Virus record (IMG/VR): IMGVR_UViG_3300030491_000004
Location: 2,786-66,785 of that record
DNA from: a virus
DNA: 64,000 nt
Strand: one strand, 5' to 3'
In this document: positions 4,741-55,086 of the stretch, piece after piece
Layout: every line of letters starts with the position of its first letter
How positions within the stretch are numbered: the first letter of the stretch is position 1
Made by a program: the position numbers and the translations under genes
Notes under the pieces: generated by a model
Databases searched by the model: none
What the model was told of the DNA's origin: nothing
Seen by the model: only the letters and a program-made list of their open reading frames with translations

Positions 4741-5010
4741 ATGAAAAAATTGATATTTGTTTTGTTACTATTGCCGGCACTAATTGCCTGTAATCAGGAA
4801 GAAATATGCGAAAAGCATGAAGTTACGATAGAATTGTACGATTTGGTAACAGATCAAGTAACCGCGTACGATATGGAGCTGAATACTGAGGTGGTTATAG
4901 ACTACTCAAAAGATGTATTCAAAATGTCAAAGATGGACTTATATAGGGCGCAATATGCACACCCAGTTATGACTTTCTTATGGAGTAATGGTTCTTATTA
5001 TTCACTGTAA
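4741..5010 (+). CDS. Putative lipoprotein
   Basis: MKK + hydrophobic stretch + lipobox LIAC. Confidence 0.65.
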   Translation: MKKLIFVLLLLPALIACNQEEICEKHEVTIELYDLVTDQVTAYDMELNTEVVIDYSKDVFKMSKMDLYRAQYAHPVMTFLWSNGSYYSL

Positions 5011-24439: not shown

Positions 24440-25213
24440 ATGGAAAGAAGAATTGGAGAAAAATTTGAAGACAATGGGGATCGTTTAGTAGTTATTAGAG
24501 GAGGAAAATGTAACAATTGCTACTACTACTTTAATGGTTGTACTGATCATAGTGTTAGAGGTGAGTGCTCCAGACTTAGAAGAGAAAAAAGTATGGAAGG
24601 TGTAATTTTTAAACAAATAAAAGAAGATATGGACGAAACAAAAATTAGAAGTGCAATTAGAGTGTATCCGGAACAAGTTCAGGAAAACATGAAAGATGTT
24701 ATTGTAAAAACAGTAACAGAGTTTGGAAAACCGGTTACGTATGTGACGATAAAAATGAAAAATGGATTTACTATTCGCGAGTCTACTACATGTGTGGATC
24801 CAGACAATTATGATGAAGAGGTTGGAAAGAAAATCTGTCTTAAAAAGATTGAAGATAAGATTTGGTGGTTACTTGGATACCAACTTCAAAGCTTTATAAA
24901 AAACGATCCTAACCCTAATGATGGAAGAAAGATTGGCGTCCTTATTGTTAATGGGGATAAACTTGTTGGCTTGTGGATGAAGTTTGACAAATTATGGGAA
25001 CAATTTTCTGAAGAATTAAACTCTGATATGGCCTTCCCAGGTAAGTTGAAGTTCTTTCAAAATTTAAAGGAGGAAAACGATATTCGTGGAGAAATAGCTG
25101 TTAAGTATTTTGATACATACAAAGAAGCTTCTGAGTATGATCCCAAAAAGGATATGCAAGTACCTTTCCCTAATGAGAAATGTTATTATGCGATGGGAGA
25201 AATAGATGCATAA
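24440..25213 (+). CDS. Protein with a Phage_gp49_66-like domain
   Basis: MKNGFTI.E...CVDPDNYDEEVGKKIC...IEDKIWWLLGYQL motif; Cys-rich N-module. Confidence 0.7.
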   Translation: MERRIGEKFEDNGDRLVVIRGGKCNNCYYYFNGCTDHSVRGECSRLRREKSMEGVIFKQIKEDMDETKIRSAIRVYPEQVQENMKDVIVKTVTEFGKPVTYVTIKMKNGFTIRESTTCVDPDNYDEEVGKKICLKKIEDKIWWLLGYQLQSFIKNDPNPNDGRKIGVLIVNGDKLVGLWMKFDKLWEQFSEELNSDMAFPGKLKFFQNLKEENDIRGEIAVKYFDTYKEASEYDPKKDMQVPFPNEKCYYAMGEIDA

Positions 25214-25230
25214 AAATATTTGTGATTTTA

Positions 25231-25261
25231 TTTGCAGATTAAAAAATAAGGCGTATATTTG
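25231..25261 (+). promoter_or_regulatory. Bacteroidota primary-sigma promoter upstream of the RNA cluster
   Basis: TTTG (25231-34), 19-nt spacer, TATATTTG (25254-61). Confidence 0.7.
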
Positions 25262-25364
25262 CATAACTCTTTTTTAAGGTTAGTAAAGTAATTAGTATTC
25301 ATTAATTTTTTAAGGAGTAAAAGTAGACTGTTGCGACCAGTTCTTTTACTCCTTTTTTAAAAAC

Positions 25365-25448
25365 TGGAGAGTAACCTGTAATTGGCAGCAGCGAAGACTG
25401 TAAATCTTCTCTTTAATTAGACTGTAGGTTCGAGTCCTACCTCCCCAA
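25365..25448 (+). tRNA. tRNA-Tyr(GTA)
   Basis: GAAGA-CTGTAAA-TCTTC anticodon arm, long variable arm, GTAGG-TTCGAGT-CCTAC T arm. Confidence 0.85.
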
Positions 25449-25449
25449 C

Positions 25450-25797
25450 TAATAGTTCGTTGATATATTATTGAAAGACGTATGGACCGGAAGGCAGAAG
25501 TCCGCACCTCCACCAGATTCAGATAACCGCTAACCAGCCGCGAAAGTGCTGTAAATAAGAAGTACCTATCTGAGAAATAGGTTGCAGATTTGACCACTGT
25601 ATAAAGTAACTGGAAGGATGTTACAAAAATTCTTCTTCTTGTTTAATTTAAAATTGGGGGTGAATAGTTTTGACAGCGTTGAGTTAGGTAATATTGAGAG
25701 CTATTAAAGTCAGAAATGACAAAAAATTGATTTCTATGGTTCAACCGGTCATGAGAATGGCTGCCTGAACACGCAAGAGGGACGCGAAAGTTCCCTC
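25450..25797 (+). ncRNA. ssrA: Circularly permuted (two-piece) tmRNA: acceptor piece ~25450-25515, intervening segment 25516-25655, coding piece 25656-~25797
   Basis: GGGGGTG/CACCTCC-ACCA with a G3.U70 pair; inter-piece helices; tag frame ending MRMAA-stop. Confidence 0.85.
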
Positions 25798-25801
25798 ACA
25801 T

Positions 25802-25903
25802 GGTTGAGTAGTTTAATGATGGAATAGCTAGTAATTGATGTGAGTGCGCCAAGATAACATTAATTAGATTCTGCTGGATCCGGTTTGATTCCGGACTCAA
25901 CCA
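25802..25903 (+). ncRNA. tRNA-like RNA with elongated anticodon arm
   Basis: GGTTGAG/CTCAACC-A acceptor, TCCGG-TTTGATT-CCGGA T arm, 10-bp extra helix with a 15-nt loop. Confidence 0.7.
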
Positions 25904-25908
25904 ACCTT

Positions 25909-25981
25909 GCTTCCGTAGCTCAGTGGTTAGAGCGTTTGCCTGTTAAGCAAAGGGTCGGCAGTCCGAATCTGTCTGGAAGCG
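25909..25981 (+). tRNA. tRNA-Asn(GTT)
   Basis: Full cloverleaf, TTTGC-CTGTTAA-GCAAA; T loop variant TCCGAAT. Confidence 0.88.
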
Positions 25982-26028
25982 CAAACAAATGACCTGGCAT
26001 ATTCCAGGATATAAATAAATATATAGAT

Positions 26029-26319
26029 ATGTATACATTAAGAATTATTGAAAACACAAGATCAAACGAAACAGAGAGGTTTGATAGTGTAATTGAAAAC
26101 TTTGAATTGGGTTGTTCTTATTCCAGAATTCAAAAAAACAAAACTAAAGAGTTTGATATTTTGATGAAAGAGGAATATCCAAATGTTGACGACACAAACA
26201 TAGACTCCATTATATTTGGAGAAAATGGTAAGAAATTCTTTATTGAGGCTTTTTCTCCTTTAAAAGAATACACTTATTTTATCATGTCGGATAATGGAAA
26301 TACTTTAGAAAGATTATGA
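26029..26319 (+). CDS. Hypothetical protein
   Basis: ORF track. Confidence 0.7.
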   Translation: MYTLRIIENTRSNETERFDSVIENFELGCSYSRIQKNKTKEFDILMKEEYPNVDDTNIDSIIFGENGKKFFIEAFSPLKEYTYFIMSDNGNTLERL

Positions 26320-26413
26320 TATAACCCGTGAGGGGTCTTCGACTAATAATTGTTTTTCATTAGTGTATAAAGTTAATGTTTAAAATTTCAAGCCCGGAAG
26401 TGTCCGGGCAACC

Positions 26414-26484
26414 AGAAGGATGGTGTAGTGGTAGCACAATAGGCTTTGGTCCTATTAGTTTAAGTTCGATTCTTAATCCTCCTA
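26414..26484 (+). tRNA. tRNA-Gln(TTG)
   Basis: ATAGG-CTTTGGT-CCTAT anticodon arm; TTAAG-TTCGATT-CTTAA T arm; one acceptor mismatch. Confidence 0.85.
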
Positions 26485-26489
26485 CAAAT

Positions 26490-26723
26490 AGAAGAGTGGC
26501 GGAAAAGTAGACGCAGCAGCTTTGAAATAAAGGCGATTGAAGGAACTAAAAAGGTATTGGTTGCAAATGAAAGTATCCTCCCAATATTGTTCCGAAGTAG
26601 CGAAGAGGGAAGTAAGGCGCGCGATGTAACAGTCGAGCAACTACGGAAGAATAAGCTAAAACTGACGTAGAGTAAAGCAATAAGGGCACCTCATCCAGGA
26701 CAAGTTGATTCCTGGCTCTTCTA
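26490..26723 (+). ncRNA. 234-nt tRNA-framed RNA with ~180-nt structured insert
   Basis: AGAAGAG/CTCTTCT-A acceptor, Leu-type D arm TGGCGGAAAAGTAGACGC, CCAGG/CCTGG T stem. Confidence 0.7.
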
Positions 26724-26809
26724 TGATATAAATACTGGCTCGGCATATATCTGTGGCTTTAAATAGTCAAGTAAGTTGAATCTGATCAATTCATAAGCCG
26801 AGCCTTATT

Positions 26810-27034
26810 TTGAAACAAACAAATAATTACAATATGGATGAAGCAAAAGATGTTACCAATAAAGAGACAATAGATGCTCTTTATAAATCAGGACAAAGAC
26901 CTGATAAGTTTAGGTGCTTAGAGTTGTCAATAGCAGCTTTGGAAAAAGTAAAAGGGATAAAAGAATCTGATCCAGTTGAATTAGCTGAAAGGTTCTTTAA
27001 ATTCGTAAGTGGAGAAAGTCCTACCAAAAAATAA
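26810..27034 (+). CDS. Hypothetical protein
   Basis: ORF track. Confidence 0.65.
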   Translation: MKQTNNYNMDEAKDVTNKETIDALYKSGQRPDKFRCLELSIAALEKVKGIKESDPVELAERFFKFVSGESPTKK

Positions 27035-27098
27035 TTTTTTACCTTTAGATGTTAAACTTAGGGGGAGTGTAAAAGCTCCTCCTTTTAATTTTACTAAA

Positions 27099-27305
27099 AT
27101 GAAACAAAATTTAGATTCAGAATTTCATGTAGGAGATCGCGTTAAAATTATCCACAACGATCTCGAACCCCAGTATGAAGGAAAAACTGGAAAGGTTAAA
27201 AAAGTGTATCCATCATTCACATTAAAGGACGTTGGGTATCGAGTGGAGGTTGAGGAGAAGACTATTAAGGGAATAGCTACTTCTGGAAGCATTCAAAAAG
27301 TTTAA
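27099..27305 (+). CDS. Small SH3/KOW-like protein (start moved to MKQNLD)
   Basis: FHVGDRVKI...GKTGKV pattern. Confidence 0.6.
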   Translation: MKQNLDSEFHVGDRVKIIHNDLEPQYEGKTGKVKKVYPSFTLKDVGYRVEVEEKTIKGIATSGSIQKV

Positions 27306-27394
27306 ATAACTTAAAATATATACTGTCGAATAGTTATTTAGATAAAAAGTAATACATTTGTATCAGAGTTTTCTAAAATTAATATTTAATCAAA

Positions 27395-27793
27395 ATGAAA
27401 AAGTTTTTATTGATCGCCTTTTTAGGCATCTTTTCATTTACATGCATGTCTGCCGGAGGGTTACCGAAACAGAATCAACAATCTACAGGTATCGTTAATG
27501 TAATAAATGAAAATTCCCCGGTGCTCCAGTTACAAACCCTTAACACTTACCAAAGGATAAGTACGCCAACCATTTCCAGCGCGGTTCTGAATGAACTAAT
27601 AACGCAGGAGCTTATTTCTCCACTACCTAAAAAATATACTCTTACAGCTAACAAATACGCATATCAGTTAGGTTCTGTGGATATTACTTATGACGAATAC
27701 ATTTTTTTAATACAGCAGTTACAGGAACTCAGCAAAATGGACTTAATTATACAGACTTATGGTCACAGTTCTAAATATAGTTCTTTTACGTAA
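27395..27793 (+). CDS. Secreted hypothetical protein
   Basis: Signal peptide; TACATTTG -7 element at 27353-27360. Confidence 0.65.
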   Translation: MKKFLLIAFLGIFSFTCMSAGGLPKQNQQSTGIVNVINENSPVLQLQTLNTYQRISTPTISSAVLNELITQELISPLPKKYTLTANKYAYQLGSVDITYDEYIFLIQQLQELSKMDLIIQTYGHSSKYSSFT

Positions 27794-27924
27794 CGCAAAT
27801 TTATCTCGGTAGATTTACTTTAATCACTGGATATAGGACCCAGTAAGATTAAGTGATCATATAAATTCGCAAGCACCCGGTAAATTATCTCAGCAAAGAA
27901 AGGAACCGGGTGCTTATTTTTTTC

Positions 27925-28022
27925 GGACGAGTGGTGCAATTGGAAGACATACCTATTGAATAGGCGGACTAATATAGCTAGCTGAATAAATCCATTCCCT
28001 GGTTCGATTCCAGGCTCGTCCA
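27925..28022 (+). tRNA. Atypical tRNA-like gene (possible Ser TGA) with oversized variable region
   Basis: GGACGAG/CTCGTCC-A, CCTGG-TTCGATT-CCAGG; CCTAT-TGA-ATAGG hairpin; ~31-nt variable region. Confidence 0.65.
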
Positions 28023-28040
28023 CAATTTAAATTATACAAC

Positions 28041-28295
28041 ATGAAAAAATTAATATTTCTAAGTACTTTATTTGTACTATTGATTTCTTGCCAACCCAAA
28101 GACACTCACACAAAACATATTTATGAATATAGTATTTATAATGGTGGAGTTGCTATTAGTCATAAGATTATCCATACTGATTATGAATTAAAGATTGAAA
28201 CATCAAGCAGAGGGTCTAGACAATTAATATCAAATCAATACCATGAACTTTACGAGGATACAAATAGTACTATAGTAATGAATCAAATAAAATAA
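28041..28295 (+). CDS. Putative lipoprotein
   Basis: Lipobox LISC. Confidence 0.65.
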   Translation: MKKLIFLSTLFVLLISCQPKDTHTKHIYEYSIYNGGVAISHKIIHTDYELKIETSSRGSRQLISNQYHELYEDTNSTIVMNQIK

Positions 28296-49875: not shown

Positions 49876-52071
49876 TTATACTATTTCTACTAATGAATTT
49901 TTTGCAAACTGTAAAGTATTTTTTCTGGAGAATTCACTAAATCTTATGTTAAACACTCCTACCATCATCTTATTCTTTACATCGCTTATTTTACCAGATC
50001 TATTGAACATACTCCTAACTTGCATCCACTCATCATTCCATATTACAAGTTCTGCGATCGTGTTGTTTTGCTGAAGTAATATCTTACAATAATCTTTAGC
50101 TTCTCCGGACTTTTTGTCTATATATTTTTTCTCTTCAATATCAGCTATAGAAGAGAGTATGATTCCTTTTTTCCCATCATATCTATCTTCTAATGCCATC
50201 TCTAAGGTAACCCATCCGGCTCTTGTTTTAAGTTTGTTCTTGATCTCCATTCCATCATAAATTCTTTTATAATCAATAGAACCAAGACCACTCACAGCTA
50301 TTTGTTTTTGGCTCCAGAAGTAATGTTTTTGAATAGCTTCTTCTGGAAAATCCGCGTCTTTTATTTCAAATTTAAGTATATCCGAAGCTCTATTCAAAAG
50401 ATCGTACCTTTCAACAACCGATAGGACGTGTTCGATATTATCAAAACATCCGGCTAGTATTAGGTTCTTTACATGAAGAGTGTTTACTGGACATTTTTCA
50501 GACTCACCGGAGTCATTTGGATCATCGTAATATTCTGTTTTCTTAAGTTTGTATTTGAATATCCTTTCTAAGAAATTTTCCAAAGAAGTAAATTCTCCTC
50601 TTTTTTCTCTTTCGGATATAATAAACTCAATAGTCTTAACTCCAACCTTATCTATCCTAGAGAAAGACCAAAATATTTCATTTAGTTTATAGTCAGTATG
50701 AAAGTCTTTTTCAGCATTATTTATATCTGGAGGAACGATCTTCGCATCACTACAAATTTCCATCTCACTAATTAATGTAGGTATATTTTCTTTATTAGCC
50801 CATTGTAAAGCTACTGTGTAAAACGCTAATGGATAATGCGCTTTAAGGTACGCACTCACATAAGCCATAGAAGAATATGCTGTGGCGTGTGATTTGTTGA
50901 ATAGGTACGAACCTCCAGCTTCCATCATTTCCCATATCTTATCAGCATCTTCTTGCGGACATTTATTATTTTTGGCACCTTTCATGAATTTATCTTTCAT
51001 GGCCATAATTTTGTCTACCTTCTTTTTGGAAATAAATTTTACAAGCTTAACTCCTTCACCTAAAGAAAATCCTCCAACCTCTCTAGCTATTCTTGCCAAA
51101 TCTTCTTGATAACACATTACACCATAAGTATCTTTCAACGCTTCATGAGTACCCCACAAATATACTGGAGTATCATCACCGAGTTTGCAATCTACATATT
51201 TTTGTGCACTGCCGAAAGTAAGTGTAGCTGGGCGATAAAGTGCGTTGGCTGCTGTTAAGTCGTTTATATTTTCAGGCTTAAGGTCGATCAAGAATTTTGT
51301 TATTCCATTACCGGTAAACTGGAAGACATCGTTTGTAAAACCATCCTTTAATAATTCATATGTTTTAGGATCGTCCATATTGCCTGTAACAAGTCCTTCA
51401 AGAGACACTCCGGCATTATAGGTTGAATTACATATCTTCATTATTGATTGGAGTTTAGACAATTCTTTTGTTGCCAGCACATCGTTCTTCAACAATCCCT
51501 GATCATCCAGTGACCCGCCATCAAATTCAGATATTAGAACACCGTCAATCTTTTTTATAGGAGTATAATCAAAACACTCCATATCTTTTCCGTTTCTATA
51601 ATCAGGAGTAACCAATAGGGCTGAGGCGTGAATAGAAGAAGATCTTGGAGAGTTCATCAACGTCCTTATGTCTTCTATCACTTGTGGAAAATCCATAATA
51701 AAACCCTTAACTCTAGGGTTTACGGCAGCCATCTTAAATAAGTCGGTCCAAGTCATTTTATCATCATCAAATATTTTGGTGATGTATTTAACCGTACTTA
51801 CAGGAACTCGGTATATTCTGGATACATCGGTGATAGCTGCTTTTATTTTCAAAGTAGTAAAGGTGCCGGCAGAAAATACCCTTTGCTTTCCATCATGATT
51901 ATATCTGGTTTCAATATATTTCTTTACATCTTGCCGTCTATCTGATTGGAAGTCGACATCCACATCCGGCAATGATCCAGACTCACCTTGTAAATAACCA
52001 CTGTCAACATACATATCTAGTACATTGACAGGGTTATTTGATGTTTTTTGTTTAACGCTTACTACTTTCAT
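49876..52071 (-). CDS. dnaE: DNA polymerase III alpha, C-terminal piece
   Basis: SLPDVDVDF, KNDVL, ALYRP, YQE, YLFNKSHA, HhH and OB-like regions. Confidence 0.92.
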   Translation of the reverse strand: MKVVSVKQKTSNNPVNVLDMYVDSGYLQGESGSLPDVDVDFQSDRRQDVKKYIETRYNHDGKQRVFSAGTFTTLKIKAAITDVSRIYRVPVSTVKYITKIFDDDKMTWTDLFKMAAVNPRVKGFIMDFPQVIEDIRTLMNSPRSSSIHASALLVTPDYRNGKDMECFDYTPIKKIDGVLISEFDGGSLDDQGLLKNDVLATKELSKLQSIMKICNSTYNAGVSLEGLVTGNMDDPKTYELLKDGFTNDVFQFTGNGITKFLIDLKPENINDLTAANALYRPATLTFGSAQKYVDCKLGDDTPVYLWGTHEALKDTYGVMCYQEDLARIAREVGGFSLGEGVKLVKFISKKKVDKIMAMKDKFMKGAKNNKCPQEDADKIWEMMEAGGSYLFNKSHATAYSSMAYVSAYLKAHYPLAFYTVALQWANKENIPTLISEMEICSDAKIVPPDINNAEKDFHTDYKLNEIFWSFSRIDKVGVKTIEFIISEREKRGEFTSLENFLERIFKYKLKKTEYYDDPNDSGESEKCPVNTLHVKNLILAGCFDNIEHVLSVVERYDLLNRASDILKFEIKDADFPEEAIQKHYFWSQKQIAVSGLGSIDYKRIYDGMEIKNKLKTRAGWVTLEMALEDRYDGKKGIILSSIADIEEKKYIDKKSGEAKDYCKILLQQNNTIAELVIWNDEWMQVRSMFNRSGKISDVKNKMMVGVFNIRFSEFSRKNTLQFAKNSLVEIV

Positions 52072-53393
52072 AACGCCAAGGTTTCTTCGATTTTACCGTA
52101 TTTGTTATTAGCTTTTTTGTACTTTTCTTCAAAGTCAAGCAAAGGTTGGTCTGGAATAATCATATCTTTTTTTATAAACGAATCAGAAACAATACCTTCC
52201 AAAGATCTGCATCTACTTAAAGCAACGTATAGTTGGCCCGGACAAAATGCGTGCGACATATGTAACGAAACTTTATTAAACGTAAGACCCTGGCTTTTAT
52301 GGATGGTAATAGCCCAAGCCAATGTTACTGGAAATTGGACACAACTTCCAATCTCTTCTTTAGTTATTTCTCCGCGTACAGACGAATATTTAAAATTACT
52401 CCATTTACATCTGGACACATTCACCAATTTGCCGTTATCTAATTTAAGTAATATTTCAGAAGGCTTTATCTCCATTATTACCCCAAGTGTTCCGTTAGAA
52501 TACTGTTTTGCTGGATCATTTACAAGTGTCATTACCTTTGCGCCTTTACGAATAGAAAGAACTAAATCGCATGGAGCAGCATTTTTAGGAAAATCTCCAG
52601 TAACATTTGCTTTAAATACATCGGTAGGAACACCAAGCTTTTCTGAATTTATAGCTTCAACATCTCTTTTATAGGTGCATATATGAACGTATTCATTGTC
52701 AAAATCTTGACTTATTTTACGATCACGCGCCTCATCCAATATTTCTAACTGATCTCTGGAAACATTATATTCCCTTATACTGTTTAATATGGAAATAAAA
52801 TTTGGATCCGATTGTCTGAATATGTGAGTTAATTCAATTACATTAAAAAATGATTGATATTTAAACACCCAAGAGTTGAAGAAATAAGTATTCGTATAGA
52901 AAGCGTCCAGTATAGCCTTATCTTCAGATTTAACTACTGGAGGTAATTGAAATAAATCTCCAAACATTACTAGTTGCATTCCACCAAAAGCAAGACTTGA
53001 TCTTCTTATTATTTGAAGTTTTTTGTCAACATAATCGAGTAGATCTGATCTTACCATACTTATCTCGTCAATTATCAAAGTGTCTAAATCTCTTAGAAGA
53101 TCTATTTTTTCTTTCTTCATTCGTATCTCCTCAATTTTACCGGTAGGAGGTATCGGTCCGAATGGAATATTTAATAAACTGAACAACGTAACTCCACCAG
53201 CATTTATAGCTGATATGCCGGTAGGTGCTGCGACTACACATTTCTTATTTGTATGCTCCATCAAATACTTCAAAAGAGTGGTCTTTCCAGTACCAGCCTT
53301 TCCAGTAATAAATACATGTTCCTTAGTATTACACACTATATCTAAGGCTTTGTTCATCTCTCTTGTTAATTCTAGTTCCATATTAAATTTCAT
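52068..53393 (-). CDS. Pif1/RecD-like SF1B helicase
   Basis: GKAGTGKT, IDEISM, GDLFQLPPV, FRQ, AITIHKSQG, YVALSR. Confidence 0.92.
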   Translation of the reverse strand: MKFNMELELTREMNKALDIVCNTKEHVFITGKAGTGKTTLLKYLMEHTNKKCVVAAPTGISAINAGGVTLFSLLNIPFGPIPPTGKIEEIRMKKEKIDLLRDLDTLIIDEISMVRSDLLDYVDKKLQIIRRSSLAFGGMQLVMFGDLFQLPPVVKSEDKAILDAFYTNTYFFNSWVFKYQSFFNVIELTHIFRQSDPNFISILNSIREYNVSRDQLEILDEARDRKISQDFDNEYVHICTYKRDVEAINSEKLGVPTDVFKANVTGDFPKNAAPCDLVLSIRKGAKVMTLVNDPAKQYSNGTLGVIMEIKPSEILLKLDNGKLVNVSRCKWSNFKYSSVRGEITKEEIGSCVQFPVTLAWAITIHKSQGLTFNKVSLHMSHAFCPGQLYVALSRCRSLEGIVSDSFIKKDMIIPDQPLLDFEEKYKKANNKYGKIEETLAL

Positions 53394-55086
53394 TTAAAGT
53401 AAATAGTACATCTCTGTTATCAAATAAAATATCATCATCTTCTTTTAACTCACTAGCTTCAATTTCTAGTGGTTCTTCAACTCCATCTCTATTAACTAAT
53501 AAGATGGCATCATTAGCTATCTTGTATTTTTTATTATTTGACAAGGTAACTTCTGTATATTCTTTAACTTCAATATCTTCTCCAACAATAGTTGTTTTTG
53601 ATGGATACAATCCAGCACGTTCCGGAAGAAGAAATCTTTCAAAAATTAAATCGTATTTTATTGGATCTATTAACGTTATACCTAAAAGATATAACACAAG
53701 ACAACCACCGGCAGATCCACGCCCTGAACCGACAAGTATATCGTTAGCGCGTGCCCAATTGACAGTATCATATTGAACAAGCATATAATCCAGATTATTA
53801 GTGGATTCAAGAACATATATTTCATAATCTAACCTTTTTTTATATATTTCCTCTTTTCCTTTTGGAACGAGTTTTTTAAATCCATCATCTAACAACTGGA
53901 GAAACATACTGTGTTGATCTCCGTATTTTTCTATTTCTTCCGGTGTCATGTCGTATGCTGGCATGAAGTTGTGCTCAGTATCAAAACTAGCCTTAGCACC
54001 ATTTAAAATAGAAACCGTATTATCACAAGCCATTTCAAAAATACTATTAACATCATGTTTTGAATGGTCAAATAACCCATCTAGCAAATCATACTGCTCA
54101 TCCAAATCTTTGAAATATTGCCCAAGACTTTGTTCATGAGACGCACCTGAAGCGATTTTGTTAAGTATTACTTTGTTTCTTGAATCGTCTTTATCCAAAT
54201 AATAACAATCTGTTATCAATATTGGAGAAACATCAATGTCTTCATTATCAAAATAATACTTAGTCGCTTCAAGTACTTTTATGTCTATTCTTTCTGATTT
54301 GTATTCAGTTAAATCTAATTGATAAAAACAATCAATAAATTTATCATAAAACAAATCAATATTTTCTCCAAGTGACTTAAGCCAATATGAAGAATATTTG
54401 TCGAACACTATCACATTACCCGGACCATATTTAAGCAAATCCTGAATGTCTATTGTTTTATCTTGCGAATCAACATTTATTGCTTTTTGAATCCTGAGTA
54501 AGTTTTGCAATCCGTCTTGTGATTGCACGTATATTTTTGCTCCTACTTTATTTTCTCCGTCTGTAAATATAAGAGAGTATCCAAATATAGGGGTTACTCC
54601 AGATTTTTTGCATTCTTTCTGCAATATTAAATGTGATGCCATTGTATTGTAATCACACACTCCTATTCCAGATTCTCCTAAATACTTAGCCTTTTTAATC
54701 CAATCGCCTATAGAAAAACTACCATTCAACAGTTCAAATTGTGAATGTATTCCCAGATTTACAAACTCTCTGGAATGTTTTAGTGATGGCGTTTTGCCAA
54801 CGTATTTAAGTATGTTGAATTCAAACTCCTCGCGAAGATCGTAATAATAAAAGTTATCTCCAAATTTAAACGCAATATAATTTATATCTTCTTTCATTAA
54901 TGAAGAAGTACTCTCCATAGAATTGAACTTAACTTCTTCATTTTCATCAATTCTAAATATAGAATGTAGTGAGTCAGTATCTTCATAAAAAACTTTTCCA
55001 AAGTCCTCTATCTCAAATACTTCATTATCTATTACGTGATATTGTATTTTATTATTGTTCAACCACGCTAAAAGTTCTTCGTTCAT
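53383..55086 (-). CDS. dnaE: DNA polymerase III alpha, N-terminal piece (PHP plus palm start)
   Basis: PHP NLGIHS.F...G; GSGRGSAGG; LGIT.IDP..YDLIFERFL. Confidence 0.92.
   Translation of the reverse strand: MNEELLAWLNNNKIQYHVIDNEVFEIEDFGKVFYEDTDSLHSIFRIDENEEVKFNSMESTSSLMKEDINYIAFKFGDNFYYYDLREEFEFNILKYVGKTPSLKHSREFVNLGIHSQFELLNGSFSIGDWIKKAKYLGESGIGVCDYNTMASHLILQKECKKSGVTPIFGYSLIFTDGENKVGAKIYVQSQDGLQNLLRIQKAINVDSQDKTIDIQDLLKYGPGNVIVFDKYSSYWLKSLGENIDLFYDKFIDCFYQLDLTEYKSERIDIKVLEATKYYFDNEDIDVSPILITDCYYLDKDDSRNKVILNKIASGASHEQSLGQYFKDLDEQYDLLDGLFDHSKHDVNSIFEMACDNTVSILNGAKASFDTEHNFMPAYDMTPEEIEKYGDQHSMFLQLLDDGFKKLVPKGKEEIYKKRLDYEIYVLESTNNLDYMLVQYDTVNWARANDILVGSGRGSAGGCLVLYLLGITLIDPIKYDLIFERFLLPERAGLYPSKTTIVGEDIEVKEYTEVTLSNNKKYKIANDAILLVNRDGVEEPLEIEASELKEDDDILFDNRDVLFTLNEI

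What the first reader, a model, noticed from the sequence alone, without database searches (positions are those of the whole stretch)
26490..26723. 234-nt tRNA-framed RNA whose anticodon arm is replaced by a 180-nt structured, stop-free insert
Seen: a perfect acceptor (AGAAGAG/CTCTTCT, discriminator A), a Leu-like D arm and a CCAGG/CCTGG T stem with an enlarged loop enclose ~180 nt. The insert has helices GGAAC/GTTCC, GTATTGG/CCAATAT, CTACG/CGTAG and GCTTT/AAAGC, plus a possible pseudoknot TCCTC/GAGGG. One frame is stop-free from 26464 to TAG at 26668-70, has no ATG, and includes GCA AAT GAA (ANESILPILF...KLKLT), which recalls tmRNA resume codons. There is no G3.U70 pair and no recognisable group I intron core. 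Inference: either a second, non-alanine tRNA-mRNA hybrid, or a tRNA scaffold that gets a cargo RNA matured and stabilised. The open frame could be chance.
Basis: partly seen in the sequence, partly recalled or inferred. Interest (0 to 1): 0.8.

Follow-up and report, generated by a model that had tools for sequence, protein, structure and literature searches.

The report
Expressed tRNA-Leu-derived long RNA in phage
A peat phage makes an RNA of about 234 bases whose two ends look like a leucine tRNA while its middle is about 165 bases of unrelated sequence; RNA libraries from nature hold it unspliced, it fits no known RNA family, and its job is unknown.

Summary
26490-26723 (+) has a perfect 7-bp acceptor, U8/G9, a class-II (Leu-type) D arm, a 5-bp T-like stem with an 11-nt loop and discriminator A. 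It starts 4 nt after tRNA-Gln. Its first 38 nt align colinearly with phage tRNA-Leu, through a 7-nt anticodon-loop-like UUUGAAA. No tool recognises it: ARAGORN with or without introns, Rfam at gathering score, and Rfam at E<=10 all give nothing.

New evidence: each of four metatranscriptome runs holds one contig lying on the element. Together they span 26495-26716 with 0-1 differences and no joint, and three end in adapter at 26500/26501. So a long unspliced RNA exists.

Against an intron: no group I core, and 0 of 2244 in-silico deletions give a tRNA. Against a tmRNA-like hybrid: no G3.U70, the open frame is chance (150 of 2000 shuffles), and a probable two-piece tmRNA lies upstream at 25455-25768.

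No homologue was found, so there is no covariation evidence, and the fold is no more stable than shuffles (z -0.45).

Best reading: an exapted or decaying tRNA-Leu gene whose tRNA-like ends mature and stabilise a non-decoding RNA. The closest analogues are T4 RNAC/RNAD.

The parts
26414..26485 (+). tRNA-Gln(UUG), 4 nt upstream of the element (context; presumed same transcript)
   Evidence: ARAGORN; Rfam tRNA 60 bits
26490..26496 (+). acceptor 5' strand AGAAGAG
   Evidence: pair probabilities 0.89-1.00
26497..26514 (+). U8, G9 and a class-II (Leu-type) D arm; the D loop has AG where tRNA-Leu has GG
   Evidence: aligned to three phage tRNA-Leu genes; blastn to the cr130_1 Gln-Leu pair; D stem probability 0.91
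26515..26527 (+). position-26 A, the anticodon-stem 5' strand GCAGC and a 7-nt anticodon-loop-like UUUGAAA (UGA where tRNA-Leu has UAA); no 3' partner strand follows
   Evidence: alignment A1; sequence
26519..26534 (+). local hairpin GCUUU/AAGGC that sequesters the anticodon-like bases; the RNA variant A26530G keeps its pair as G.U
   Evidence: pair probability 0.8; variant in run X24
26542..26593 (+). hairpin domain closed by GGAAC/GTTCC, with inner GGTATTGG/CCAATATT
   Evidence: pair probabilities 0.90 and about 0.47
26622..26635 (+). small hairpin CGAU/GUCG
   Evidence: pair probability 0.96-0.99
26641..26670 (+). hairpin CTACG/CGTAG; holds the TAG that ends the chance open frame
   Evidence: pair probability 0.94-0.96; frame
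26695..26715 (+). T-like arm CCAGG/CCTGG with an 11-nt loop that lacks the TTC motif
   Evidence: pair probability 0.43-0.98
26716..26723 (+). acceptor 3' strand CTCTTCT and discriminator A; no encoded CCA
26495..26716 (.). extent covered by RNA-library contigs (union of four runs); adapter letters abut 26500/26501 in three runs
   Evidence: tables 7 and 8
26730..26812 (+). long-stem hairpin (GGCUCGGC/GCCGAGCC) followed by UUAUUUUG; a terminator-like end of the tRNA operon
   Evidence: fold z -2.86, 1 of 200 shuffles at least as stable; not called by the simple terminator scan (its loop is too long for that scan)

Best explanation
The element is a gene derived from a class-II, leucine-type tRNA. 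It probably descends from the Leu member of a Gln-Leu tRNA pair. It no longer decodes, but it is still made as a stable RNA of about 234 nt.

Proposed mechanism:
1. It is transcribed on the + strand with tRNA-Gln, up to the hairpin plus U-run at 26730-26812 (inferred).
2. RNase P cuts at 26489/26490. The 3' end is trimmed to A26723 and CCA is added by host enzymes, because the 7-bp acceptor stacked on the 5-bp T-like stem is a tRNA-type minihelix (inferred).
3. The paired tRNA-like ends shield the RNA from exonucleases, so about 165 nt of non-tRNA sequence accumulate inside the frame (accumulation shown; the cause is inferred).
4. It is not spliced to a tRNA, and it cannot decode. The anticodon stem has no 3' strand, the anticodon-like bases sit in a small local hairpin, and the elbow contacts are altered in both the D loop and the T loop (sequence shown; the consequences inferred).

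What the inner domain does is unknown. I give about even odds between an exapted function (a decoy or sponge for a tRNA-binding factor, or another regulatory RNA) and none.
For: Ancestry:
- The first 38 nt align colinearly with tRNA-Leu of cr130_1, of the relative G001 and of T4. The alignment covers the acceptor, U8/G9, the D arm, position 26, the stem 5' strand and a 7-nt loop.
- blastn joins tRNA-Gln plus the first 39 nt to the adjacent tRNA-Gln/tRNA-Leu pair of cr130_1. T4 has the same Gln-then-Leu order.
- The spacing after tRNA-Gln is 4 nt.

Frame:
- Acceptor, D and T-like stems are predicted at 0.9-1.0 without any constraint.
- The conditional chance of the acceptor plus adjacent hairpin is about 4e-4.

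RNA:
- Each of 4 of 4 RNA runs laid gave one contig on the element: 26500-26716, 26495-26668, 26501-26643 and 26500-26637, with 0, 1, 0 and 1 differences.
- In three runs Illumina adapter letters directly abut 26500/26501. No joint was reported.
- The X20 contig bridges the insert/T-arm boundary with 43 letters on the 3' side.
- The one listed variant, A26530G, turns an A-U pair of the local hairpin into G.U.

A structured hairpin with a U-run follows the element.

Precedent:
- T4 RNAC and RNAD are stable RNAs from the T4 tRNA region whose roles are unknown (passages of PMC3014915 and PMC9697503).
- RNAC as annotated folds with a terminal stem and a canonical T arm.
- Bacterial Y RNAs carry a tRNA-like module. 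One of them is cut by RNase P and receives CCA. Protection from nucleases is one role its authors discuss (passages of PMC4201824).
Against: - No homologue of the element or its insert was found in GenBank phages. Exact-pattern scans of IMG/VR and one 18-mer scan each of JGI metagenomes and GTDB genomes also found none. The two closest phages, with TerL about 70% identical, lack it. nhmmer over 553 kb of fetched loci found nothing. There is therefore no evidence of conservation or covariation.
- The fold is no more stable than shuffles (z -0.45).
- Contigs cannot give strand, level or true ends.
- Their common end at 26500 lies 10 nt inside the predicted 5' end. The acceptor strands are covered only at 26495-26499 (X22) and at 26716 (X20). 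RNase P processing at 26490, and CCA addition, are therefore not shown.
- At the 5' side the contigs have only 15-33 letters left of the D-arm/insert boundary, mostly below the 31 that the tool asks for before a record counts as bridging.
- The runs were chosen because they hold this stretch, and X20 and X23 may come from one campaign.
- The D loop lacks GG and the T loop is aberrant. This could also weaken recognition by tRNA-processing enzymes.
- The window holds two more degenerate tRNA-like frames. That fits plain tRNA decay as well as it fits exaptation.
Confidence: 0.55

Rival explanations
1. It is a dead tRNA-Leu gene, a pseudo-tRNA disrupted by insertion or rearrangement. It is still transcribed with the tRNA operon, and it accumulates only because its ends pair. 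It has no function.
For: - Hallmarks of decay are present: the GG of the D loop is reduced to AG, the T loop lacks TTC, and the anticodon stem has no 3' strand.
- The insert is no more stable than shuffled sequence.
- No homologue exists anywhere searched.
- Two other degenerate tRNA-like frames lie in the same window, at 25801-25905 and 27925-28023.
- Exact-match scans for the same D arm turned up mostly non-canonical tRNA-like frames.
Against: - The acceptor is still 7 of 7 Watson-Crick and the T-like stem 5 of 5, in a gene that has otherwise changed a great deal.
- The RNA was recovered in 4 of 4 RNA runs with 0-1 differences, including one run labelled as a different habitat.
- A 234-nt useless RNA inside a compact phage genome should be lost quickly (inference).
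Confidence: 0.22
2. It is a tRNA gene interrupted by an unrecognised intron, either a very small or degenerate self-splicing one or a protein-dependent one. The contigs would then show the precursor.
For: - The 5' 38 nt resemble tRNA-Leu(UAA), the classic host of bacterial group I introns (background from the main text of bioRxiv 10.1101/2020.01.27.920355).
- The exon-like GCUUU can pair with AAGGC to give a P1-like hairpin with a U.G pair.
- Mature tRNAs are rarely assembled from RNA-seq, so the absence of a spliced contig says little.
Against: - Rfam Intron_gpI gives no match even at E<=10 on a 601-nt search.
- 0 of 2244 single in-silico deletions (5' cut at element positions 26-59, 3' cut at 140-205) give an ARAGORN tRNA at default settings.
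- No complement of GCAGC lies before the T arm.
- The insert is shorter than the smallest natural group I introns I recall, about 200 nt (recalled).
- All four contigs begin in the D arm, about 20 nt upstream of any plausible 5' splice site, and not at an intron end. X20 runs on through the 3' boundary.
Confidence: 0.08
3. It is a second tRNA-mRNA hybrid, tmRNA-like: charged by LeuRS, which does not read the anticodon, and translated from an internal resume codon.
For: - Discriminator A and a Leu-type D arm are present.
- A 68-codon stop-free frame contains GCA AAT GAA and ends at a TAG inside a hairpin.
- That LeuRS is independent of the anticodon is recalled knowledge.
Against: - A frame this long arises in 150 of 2000 dinucleotide shuffles. 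The region is T-poor (19.7% T), which lowers stop frequency.
- The - strand has an even longer open run, 76 codons.
- There is no G3.U70, the T loop is aberrant and the D-loop GG is lost.
- No tmRNA model or ARAGORN tmRNA call hits the element.
- The phage has its own probable two-piece tmRNA with G3.U70 and a tag ending in Ala-Ala.
- A 35-residue tag ending KLKLT is unlike known degradation tags (recalled).
Confidence: 0.03
4. The RNA comes from the - strand, or is a fragment of a longer messenger, and the tRNA-like frame is incidental.
For: - Contigs carry no strand information.
- Two - strand ORFs of 52 and 66 aa overlap the element.
Against: - All tRNAs and nearly all ORFs of this half of the window are on the + strand, and GC skew is positive there.
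- The two - strand ORFs have no Pfam match at E<=1.
- The D arm is tRNA-like only on the + strand.
- A - strand 3' end at 26500 would fall inside a hairpin with no U-run.
Confidence: 0.05

Closest known systems
Phage T4 RNAC (species 1) and RNAD (species 2) stable RNAs
   Same: They are encoded at the end of a phage tRNA cluster, directly after a tRNA. T4 also has the Gln-then-Leu pair. They are stable small RNAs with no known role (passages of PMC3014915 and PMC9697503). RNAC as annotated folds with paired ends next to a T arm, with long hairpins in between.
   Different: - There is no sequence similarity: nhmmer of the element against all loci, including the T4 region, found nothing there.
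- The sizes are 139 and 119 nt against 234.
- RNAC has a canonical TTCGAAT T loop and no class-II D arm.
- RNAC's fold is far more stable than shuffles (z -4.57), whereas the element's is not (z -0.45).
tmRNA (one-piece and two-piece)
   Same: tRNA-like ends (acceptor plus T arm) enclose a long non-tRNA domain. It is processed like a tRNA.
   Different: The element has no G3.U70, has a true D stem, has a non-canonical T loop, matches no tmRNA model, and its frame is at chance level. The same window holds a separate probable two-piece tmRNA.
Bacterial and phage Y RNAs (YrlA) with a tRNA-like module
   Same: They are non-coding RNAs that borrow D-, T- and acceptor-like elements. One member is cut by RNase P and receives CCA. 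Nuclease protection is one role its authors discuss (passages of PMC4201824).
   Different: - In YrlA the RNA termini lie in the Ro-binding stem, not in the acceptor (same passages).
- YrlA genes sit next to a Ro60 gene. The 10 ORFs scanned with Pfam, including all 7 of 441 aa or more, show no such domain.
- No Rfam family matched the element.
tRNA-Leu(UAA) genes split by a group I intron
   Same: The body is Leu-type, and a long sequence begins at or next to the anticodon loop (main text of bioRxiv 10.1101/2020.01.27.920355).
   Different: There is no intron core, no restorable 3' half of the anticodon stem, and no spliced form. The RNA contigs run across the boundaries.
Engineered 'tRNA scaffold' expression of recombinant RNAs
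   Same: The design is the same: a cargo replaces the anticodon arm inside a tRNA frame, so that cellular tRNA enzymes mature and protect it. This is recalled; PMC3753655 was seen only in a search listing.
   Different: That is a laboratory design. Here it would be natural, and the cargo also replaces the variable region.

Membership tests
canonical tRNA | recognised as a cloverleaf by tRNA models | tested here: not met
   No ARAGORN call. No Rfam tRNA hit on 26490-26723 at gathering score or at E<=10.
canonical tRNA | 7-bp acceptor stem, U8, D stem and discriminator at standard spacing | tested here: met
canonical tRNA | 5-bp anticodon stem closing a 7-nt loop | tested here: not met
   The 5' strand GCAGC and the loop UUUGAAA are present, but no complementary strand follows. 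The bases fold into a local hairpin instead.
canonical tRNA | G18G19 in the D loop and a T-Psi-C type 7-nt T loop | tested here: not met
   The D loop has AG where the three aligned tRNA-Leu genes have GG. The T loop is 11 nt and lacks TTC.
group I intron in a tRNA gene | catalytic core detectable by the Intron_gpI model | tested here: not met
   No match at E<=10 on 26300-26900 or on 25200-28100. The bacterial-tRNA-specific model of bioRxiv 10.1101/2020.01.27.920355 is a supplement and could not be used.
group I intron in a tRNA gene | removal of one segment restores a recognisable tRNA | tested here: not met
   ARAGORN with introns gives no call. 0 of 2244 deletion variants are called at default settings; 211 and 1229 are called at the relaxed 80% and 60% thresholds, with inconsistent identities.
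group I intron in a tRNA gene | spliced RNA exists | tested here: inconclusive
   No joint in four RNA runs, but contigs drop rare forms and short tRNAs are rarely assembled.
tmRNA | G3.U70 alanine identity pair | tested here: not met
   Position 3 is A paired with U.
tmRNA | match to tmRNA covariance models or an ARAGORN tmRNA call | tested here: not met
   Those models do hit 25455-25768 in the same window.
tmRNA | tag reading frame beyond chance, with a degradation-type ending | tested here: not met
   150 of 2000 shuffles give a frame at least as long; the frame ends ...KLKLT.
YrlA / bacterial Y RNA | gene next to a Ro60 (TROVE) gene | tested here: not met
   Pfam on 10 of the 18 ORFs of 250 aa or more, including all 7 of 441 aa or more, shows no such domain. 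Smaller ORFs were not all scanned.
YrlA / bacterial Y RNA | termini in a Ro-binding stem, with the tRNA-like module internal | tested here: not met
   Here the predicted termini are the acceptor strands. The topology of the family comes from passages of PMC4201824.
T4 RNAC/RNAD-type stable RNAs of phage tRNA clusters (a kind, not a sequence family) | encoded within or at the end of a phage tRNA cluster | tested here: met
T4 RNAC/RNAD-type stable RNAs of phage tRNA clusters (a kind, not a sequence family) | accumulates as a discrete small RNA | tested here: inconclusive
   RNA-library contigs lie on the element in 4 of 4 runs, with adapter at 26500/26501 in 3. Contigs cannot prove ends, strand or level.
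T4 RNAC/RNAD-type stable RNAs of phage tRNA clusters (a kind, not a sequence family) | sequence homology to RNAC or RNAD | tested here: not met
   nhmmer at E<=10 found no hit in the T4 locus L061.

The most novel reading that the evidence does not exclude
Phages use worn-down class-II tRNA frames as natural RNA scaffolds. Acceptor, D arm and a T-like arm are kept so that RNase P and the CCA enzyme mature the RNA. The elbow contacts and the anticodon arm are given up, and the frame carries interchangeable cargo domains.

The window's 234-nt RNA would be the first such RNA seen in environmental RNA libraries. The same exact D arm heads seven other non-canonical frames of 74-217 nt (eight loci: L036, L038, L046, L047, L054/L063, L062, L066). 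At least four of them lie in contigs that also carry tRNA genes. These would be further members with different cargos.
Probability: 0.2. Interest if true: 0.75.

Novelty: new variant of a known kind. Interest (0 to 1): 0.52.

Why it matters
Phage tRNA clusters have been known for fifty years to hold extra stable RNAs. T4 RNAC and RNAD are the examples, and nobody has explained them.

This element is a clear and larger case in an uncultured peat phage. Its tRNA ancestry can still be read base by base, and the RNA itself can be seen in environmental RNA libraries.

If the inner domain proves functional, it would show that nature uses the 'tRNA scaffold' trick that laboratories invented to express foreign RNAs. 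It would also give a handle for finding more such RNAs, which standard tRNA and Rfam scans miss.

If it is only a decaying tRNA, it is a useful warning. Dead tRNA genes can still yield RNAs that appear in metatranscriptomes.

Tried and rejected
Homologue searches that found nothing:
- blastn (distant mode) of 26300-26900 against 50,697 phage records gave 3 records, all matching only tRNA-Gln, plus the D arm in one case.
- Exact 31-mer and 21-mer patterns in IMG/VR gave 0 and 0.
- Related loci by the neighbouring 257-aa protein gave 0.
- DNA search of the four TerL-related virus records gave only 14-19-nt chance matches, E 0.14-0.5.
- nhmmer of the element and of its insert over 75 loci (553 kb) gave one weak hit to a tRNA-Ser D arm, E 0.16, and none for the insert.
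- Records very near the window's own genome are withheld by the collection tools, so close strain variants could not be read.

Antisense target idea: blastn-short of the element against the rest of the window gave at most 12-nt matches, E 0.7. No target is evident.

Promoter and terminator scan of 25200-27200: 5 promoter-like sites against 6.0 expected. No terminator was called next to the element, so this was not informative.

PHROGs and Pfam on neighbouring ORFs gave no informative family.

Parts without RNA cover. In the four runs laid on 25300-27400:
- nothing lay on tRNA-Gln, on the flanks of the element, or on 25455-25768;
- contigs on 25371-25441 (X23, X24) and on 25779-25984 (X23) run on into unlike sequence, so they belong to other organisms or to a relative.

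Habitat: all runs are labelled peat or wetland. The ten best DNA holders may be the source samples. I draw nothing further from this.

The common contig end at 26500 could be a true 5' end, a reverse-transcriptase stop, or the usual loss of roughly ten terminal bases in second-strand library protocols (recalled, not tested). X22 reaches 26495.

Group I folding by eye found a P1-like hairpin with a U.G pair two bases before the Leu-type splice position, but no consistent P3-P9. I dropped this.

Not available:
- The look-up of encoding contigs is declared closed and was not called.
- Supplements of papers are closed and were not requested. The tRNA-intron covariance model and Table S1 of PMC9004378 lie there and might bear on the intron and tmRNA points.

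No structure, complex or protein-database searches were relevant, and none was run.
Full report
**What is there.** The window is 64 kb of a 66.8-kb IMG/VR virus record. CheckV estimates it 60% complete. All runs that hold it are labelled peat or wetland. The phage has a large terminase, DnaB, a DNA polymerase III alpha split over two ORFs, and the standard genetic code.

On the + strand lie, in order:
- tRNA-Ile, tRNA-Tyr and tRNA-Asn;
- a 96-aa ORF;
- tRNA-Gln at 26414-26485;
- four bases later, the element at 26490-26723.

Without any constraint, the folding ensemble gives the acceptor 0.89-1.00, the D stem 0.91 and the T-like stem up to 0.98. Of the inner helices:
- GGAAC/GTTCC (0.90) and CTACG/CGTAG (0.95) are well supported;
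- GGTATTGG/CCAATATT is one of two alternatives (0.47);
- GCTTT/AAAGC is not favoured, because GCTTT pairs locally with AAGGC at 0.8.

**Is it more than chance?** A 7-bp terminal helix that abuts a 5-bp hairpin is common on its own: 31 sites on the + strand of the window against 24.3 on average in 20 shuffles. What makes the frame real is that it is anchored to a D arm recognised independently. Given that anchor, the chance rate is about 4e-4.

The inner 180 nt are not unusually stable (MFE -54.4 kcal/mol, z -0.45). The 68-codon stop-free frame is matched or beaten by 150 of 2000 dinucleotide shuffles. The region has only 19.7% T, and the - strand has an even longer open run of 76 codons.

**It matches no described family.** Four searches give nothing on 26490-26723:
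- ARAGORN with and without introns, and its tmRNA search;
- Rfam 15 at gathering score;
- Rfam at E<=10 on 601 bases;
- Rfam at E<=10 on 2.9 kb.

**Ancestry.** blastn against GenBank phages joins tRNA-Gln plus the first 39 nt of the element to crAss-like phage cr130_1, where tRNA-Gln is followed after 5 nt by an ordinary tRNA-Leu(UAA). T4 has the same Gln-then-Leu order.

I aligned the element with the tRNA-Leu genes of cr130_1, of the relative G001 and of T4. Its first 38 nt are colinear with them: acceptor, U8/G9, D arm, position 26, the anticodon-stem 5' strand (GCAGC) and a full 7-nt loop UUUGAAA, with UGA where the Leu genes have UAA or UAG.

Three things are wrong for a working tRNA:
- The D loop has AG where all three Leu genes have GG.
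- No strand complementary to GCAGC follows the loop.
- The T loop is 11 nt and lacks TTC.

So the element is a Leu-type tRNA gene. Its anticodon-stem 3' strand and variable arm are replaced by about 165 nt, and both partners of its elbow have changed.

**RNA evidence.** The look-up of sequencing runs listed 24 runs that hold part of 26300-26900. Four are RNA libraries, and I laid all four on 25300-27400.

| Run | Contig on the element | Differences | Adapter letters |
|---|---|---|---|
| X20 | 26500-26716 | 0 | before 26500 |
| X22 | 26495-26668 | 1 | none |
| X23 | 26501-26643 | 0 | before 26501 and after 26643 |
| X24 | 26500-26637 | 1 (A26530G) | before 26500 |

No joint and no indel was reported.

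The fragments therefore end at one place, give or take a base, in three libraries. The RNA runs unbroken from the D arm into the insert. In X20 it also runs across the insert/T-arm boundary, with 43 letters on the far side. At the 5' boundary only 15-33 letters lie to the left, mostly fewer than the 31 the tool asks for before a record counts as bridging.

The A26530G variant changes an A-U pair of the local hairpin into G.U.

Limits of this evidence:
- Contigs give no strand, level or true ends.
- The X23 and X24 contigs are about one read long and may stem from few molecules.
- The runs were chosen for holding this stretch.
- X20 and X23 may come from one campaign.

The common end at 26500 is 10 nt inside the predicted RNase P site. 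X22 reaches 26495. I think a loss of terminal bases during library making, or a reverse-transcriptase stop, is likelier than a true end at 26500. That is inference.

**Intron reading.**
- There is no group I core at E<=10.
- ARAGORN allowing introns of up to 300 nt calls nothing.
- Of 2244 in-silico single deletions, none gives a tRNA at default settings. Relaxed thresholds give hundreds of mutually inconsistent calls.
- The contigs start in the D arm, not at an intron end.

A slow or protein-dependent splicing event cannot be excluded from contigs alone.

**tmRNA-like reading.** The frame is at chance level, there is no G3.U70, and the T loop is aberrant.

The same Rfam scan found a probable two-piece tmRNA at 25455-25768: tmRNA_permuted at 45.7 bits against a gathering score of 47 (E 3.5e-7), and alpha_tmRNA at 29.3 bits (E 4.3e-6). 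In that alignment the acceptor strands give G3.U70, CCA is encoded, and the tag frame ends Ala-Ala-stop. Phage two-piece tmRNAs are already described (passages of PMC9004378). The phage therefore already has the hybrid RNA it needs.

**Searches for relatives.** I found none of the element itself:
- exact patterns in IMG/VR;
- the neighbouring protein;
- the two closest phages, G001 and G002, with TerL about 70% identical; G001 carries tRNA-Met, Phe, Asn and Leu(UAG) but not the element;
- nhmmer over all fetched loci.

The exact 18-nt D arm occurs in 38 metagenome stretches, 2 IMG/VR stretches and 13 GTDB genome stretches.

Of the 38 metagenome stretches:
- 13 are one conserved leader-like sequence upstream of an ORF in soil contigs;
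- 18 I did not examine beyond their first 120 bases, or judged unrelated;
- 7 are tRNA-like.

Of those 7 tRNA-like stretches:
- one is a normal tRNA-Ser (L026);
- one is a 92-nt ARAGORN 'tRNA-???' (L029);
- five are frames with paired ends but non-canonical interiors: L036 118 nt, L038 74 nt, L046 217 nt, L047 138 nt and L054 118 nt.

L062 (151 nt) and L063 (the same element as L054) from IMG/VR, and L066 (109 nt) from a Saccharibacteria MAG contig, are further frames of this sort. None of the 13 genome matches is an ARAGORN tRNA.

None of the five loci L036, L046, L047, L054 and L062 matches an Rfam family at the element. L036, L038, L046 and L047 carry tRNA genes on the same contig.

These elements share only the D arm that I searched with. 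They are not shown to be one family. They do suggest that this D-loop variant goes with tRNA genes that have left decoding.

**Mechanism and odds.**
- Best reading (0.55): a non-decoding RNA derived from tRNA-Leu, transcribed with tRNA-Gln, ended by the structured hairpin and U-run at 26730-26812 (z -2.86), and cut and trimmed like a tRNA. Its paired tRNA-like ends let about 165 nt of other sequence accumulate. Shown: the ancestry, the frame, and the existence of the unspliced RNA. Inferred: strand, exact ends, processing enzymes, and any function of the inner domain.
- A functionless relic that merely persists: 0.22.
- An unrecognised intron: 0.08.
- A - strand or messenger fragment: 0.05.
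- A tmRNA-like hybrid: 0.03.

**Comparison with what is known.** In kind, it is closest to T4 RNAC and RNAD. These are stable RNAs at the end of the T4 tRNA cluster whose roles are still unknown (passages of PMC3014915 and PMC9697503). RNAC also has paired ends beside a T arm. There is no sequence relation, and the size and the kept D arm differ.

It shares the principle of a borrowed tRNA module with tmRNA and with bacterial Y RNAs (passages of PMC4201824), but it fails the defining features of both.

My literature searches found no description of a tRNA-framed RNA of this sort (full text of open-access PMC and bioRxiv only).

I therefore rate it a new variant of a known kind. It is of moderate interest and rests on one genome.

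Supplements were closed. Close strain variants are withheld by the collection tools.

Noticed in passing
window 25455-25768 (+): Probable phage-encoded two-piece (permuted) tmRNA between tRNA-Tyr and tRNA-Asn. Rfam tmRNA_permuted scores 45.7 bits against a gathering score of 47 (E 3.5e-7), and alpha_tmRNA 29.3 bits (E 4.3e-6). The acceptor piece ends in an encoded CCA, the coding piece starts with the G-rich acceptor strand giving G3.U70, and the tag frame ends Ala-Ala-stop. ARAGORN missed it. Phage two-piece tmRNAs are already described (PMC9004378).
   Followed up: partly
window 25801-25905 (+): A second tRNA-framed, non-canonical element, 3 nt before tRNA-Asn: GGTTGAG/CTCAACC acceptor, T arm TCCGG-TTTGATT-CCGGA and discriminator A. 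The fold z-score is -2.67. It is not called by ARAGORN or Rfam. An RNA contig of run X23 from a related organism covers 25779-25984.
   Followed up: partly
window 27925-28023 (+): A third degenerate tRNA-like gene of 99 nt, with acceptor GGACGAG/CTCGTCC and a canonical T arm. It sits just after a terminator-like hairpin. ARAGORN calls it tRNA-Phe(GAA) only if a 16-nt intron is allowed. Rfam does not call it.
   Followed up: partly
window 49876-55086 (-): DNA polymerase III alpha is split into two ORFs, 53383-55086 (PHP plus N-terminal part) and 49876-52071 (fingers plus HhH), with a PIF1-like helicase ORF (52068-53393) between them. The relative G001 has the same order.
   Followed up: no
L036, L038, L046, L047, L054/L063, L062, L066: The exact 18-nt D arm of the element heads seven other distinct tRNA-like frames of 74-217 nt with paired ends and non-canonical interiors. 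Four of the loci also carry tRNA genes. None of the five scanned matches an Rfam family at the element. They may be ex-tRNAs or a wider class of tRNA-framed RNAs.
   Followed up: partly
L023-L025, L027, L028, L031, L035, L040, L044, L050, L052, L056, L057: Thirteen soil-metagenome contigs share a conserved sequence of about 230 nt that contains the same 18-mer, begins after a short palindromic hairpin, and ends at a ribosome-binding site and ATG. It may be an undescribed leader or riboswitch-like RNA. There was no Rfam match in the four loci scanned.
   Followed up: no
G001 (L012) about 4800-5000 (-), and window 25745-25765: A motif of the form GGTTCGTGAGAATAGG stands upstream of both tRNA-Asn and tRNA-Leu in the relative G001. 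It resembles GGTCATGAGAATGG inside the tag region of the window's putative tmRNA. Its meaning is unknown. It could be a processing or promoter signal, and it is a caution for the tmRNA tag reading.
   Followed up: no
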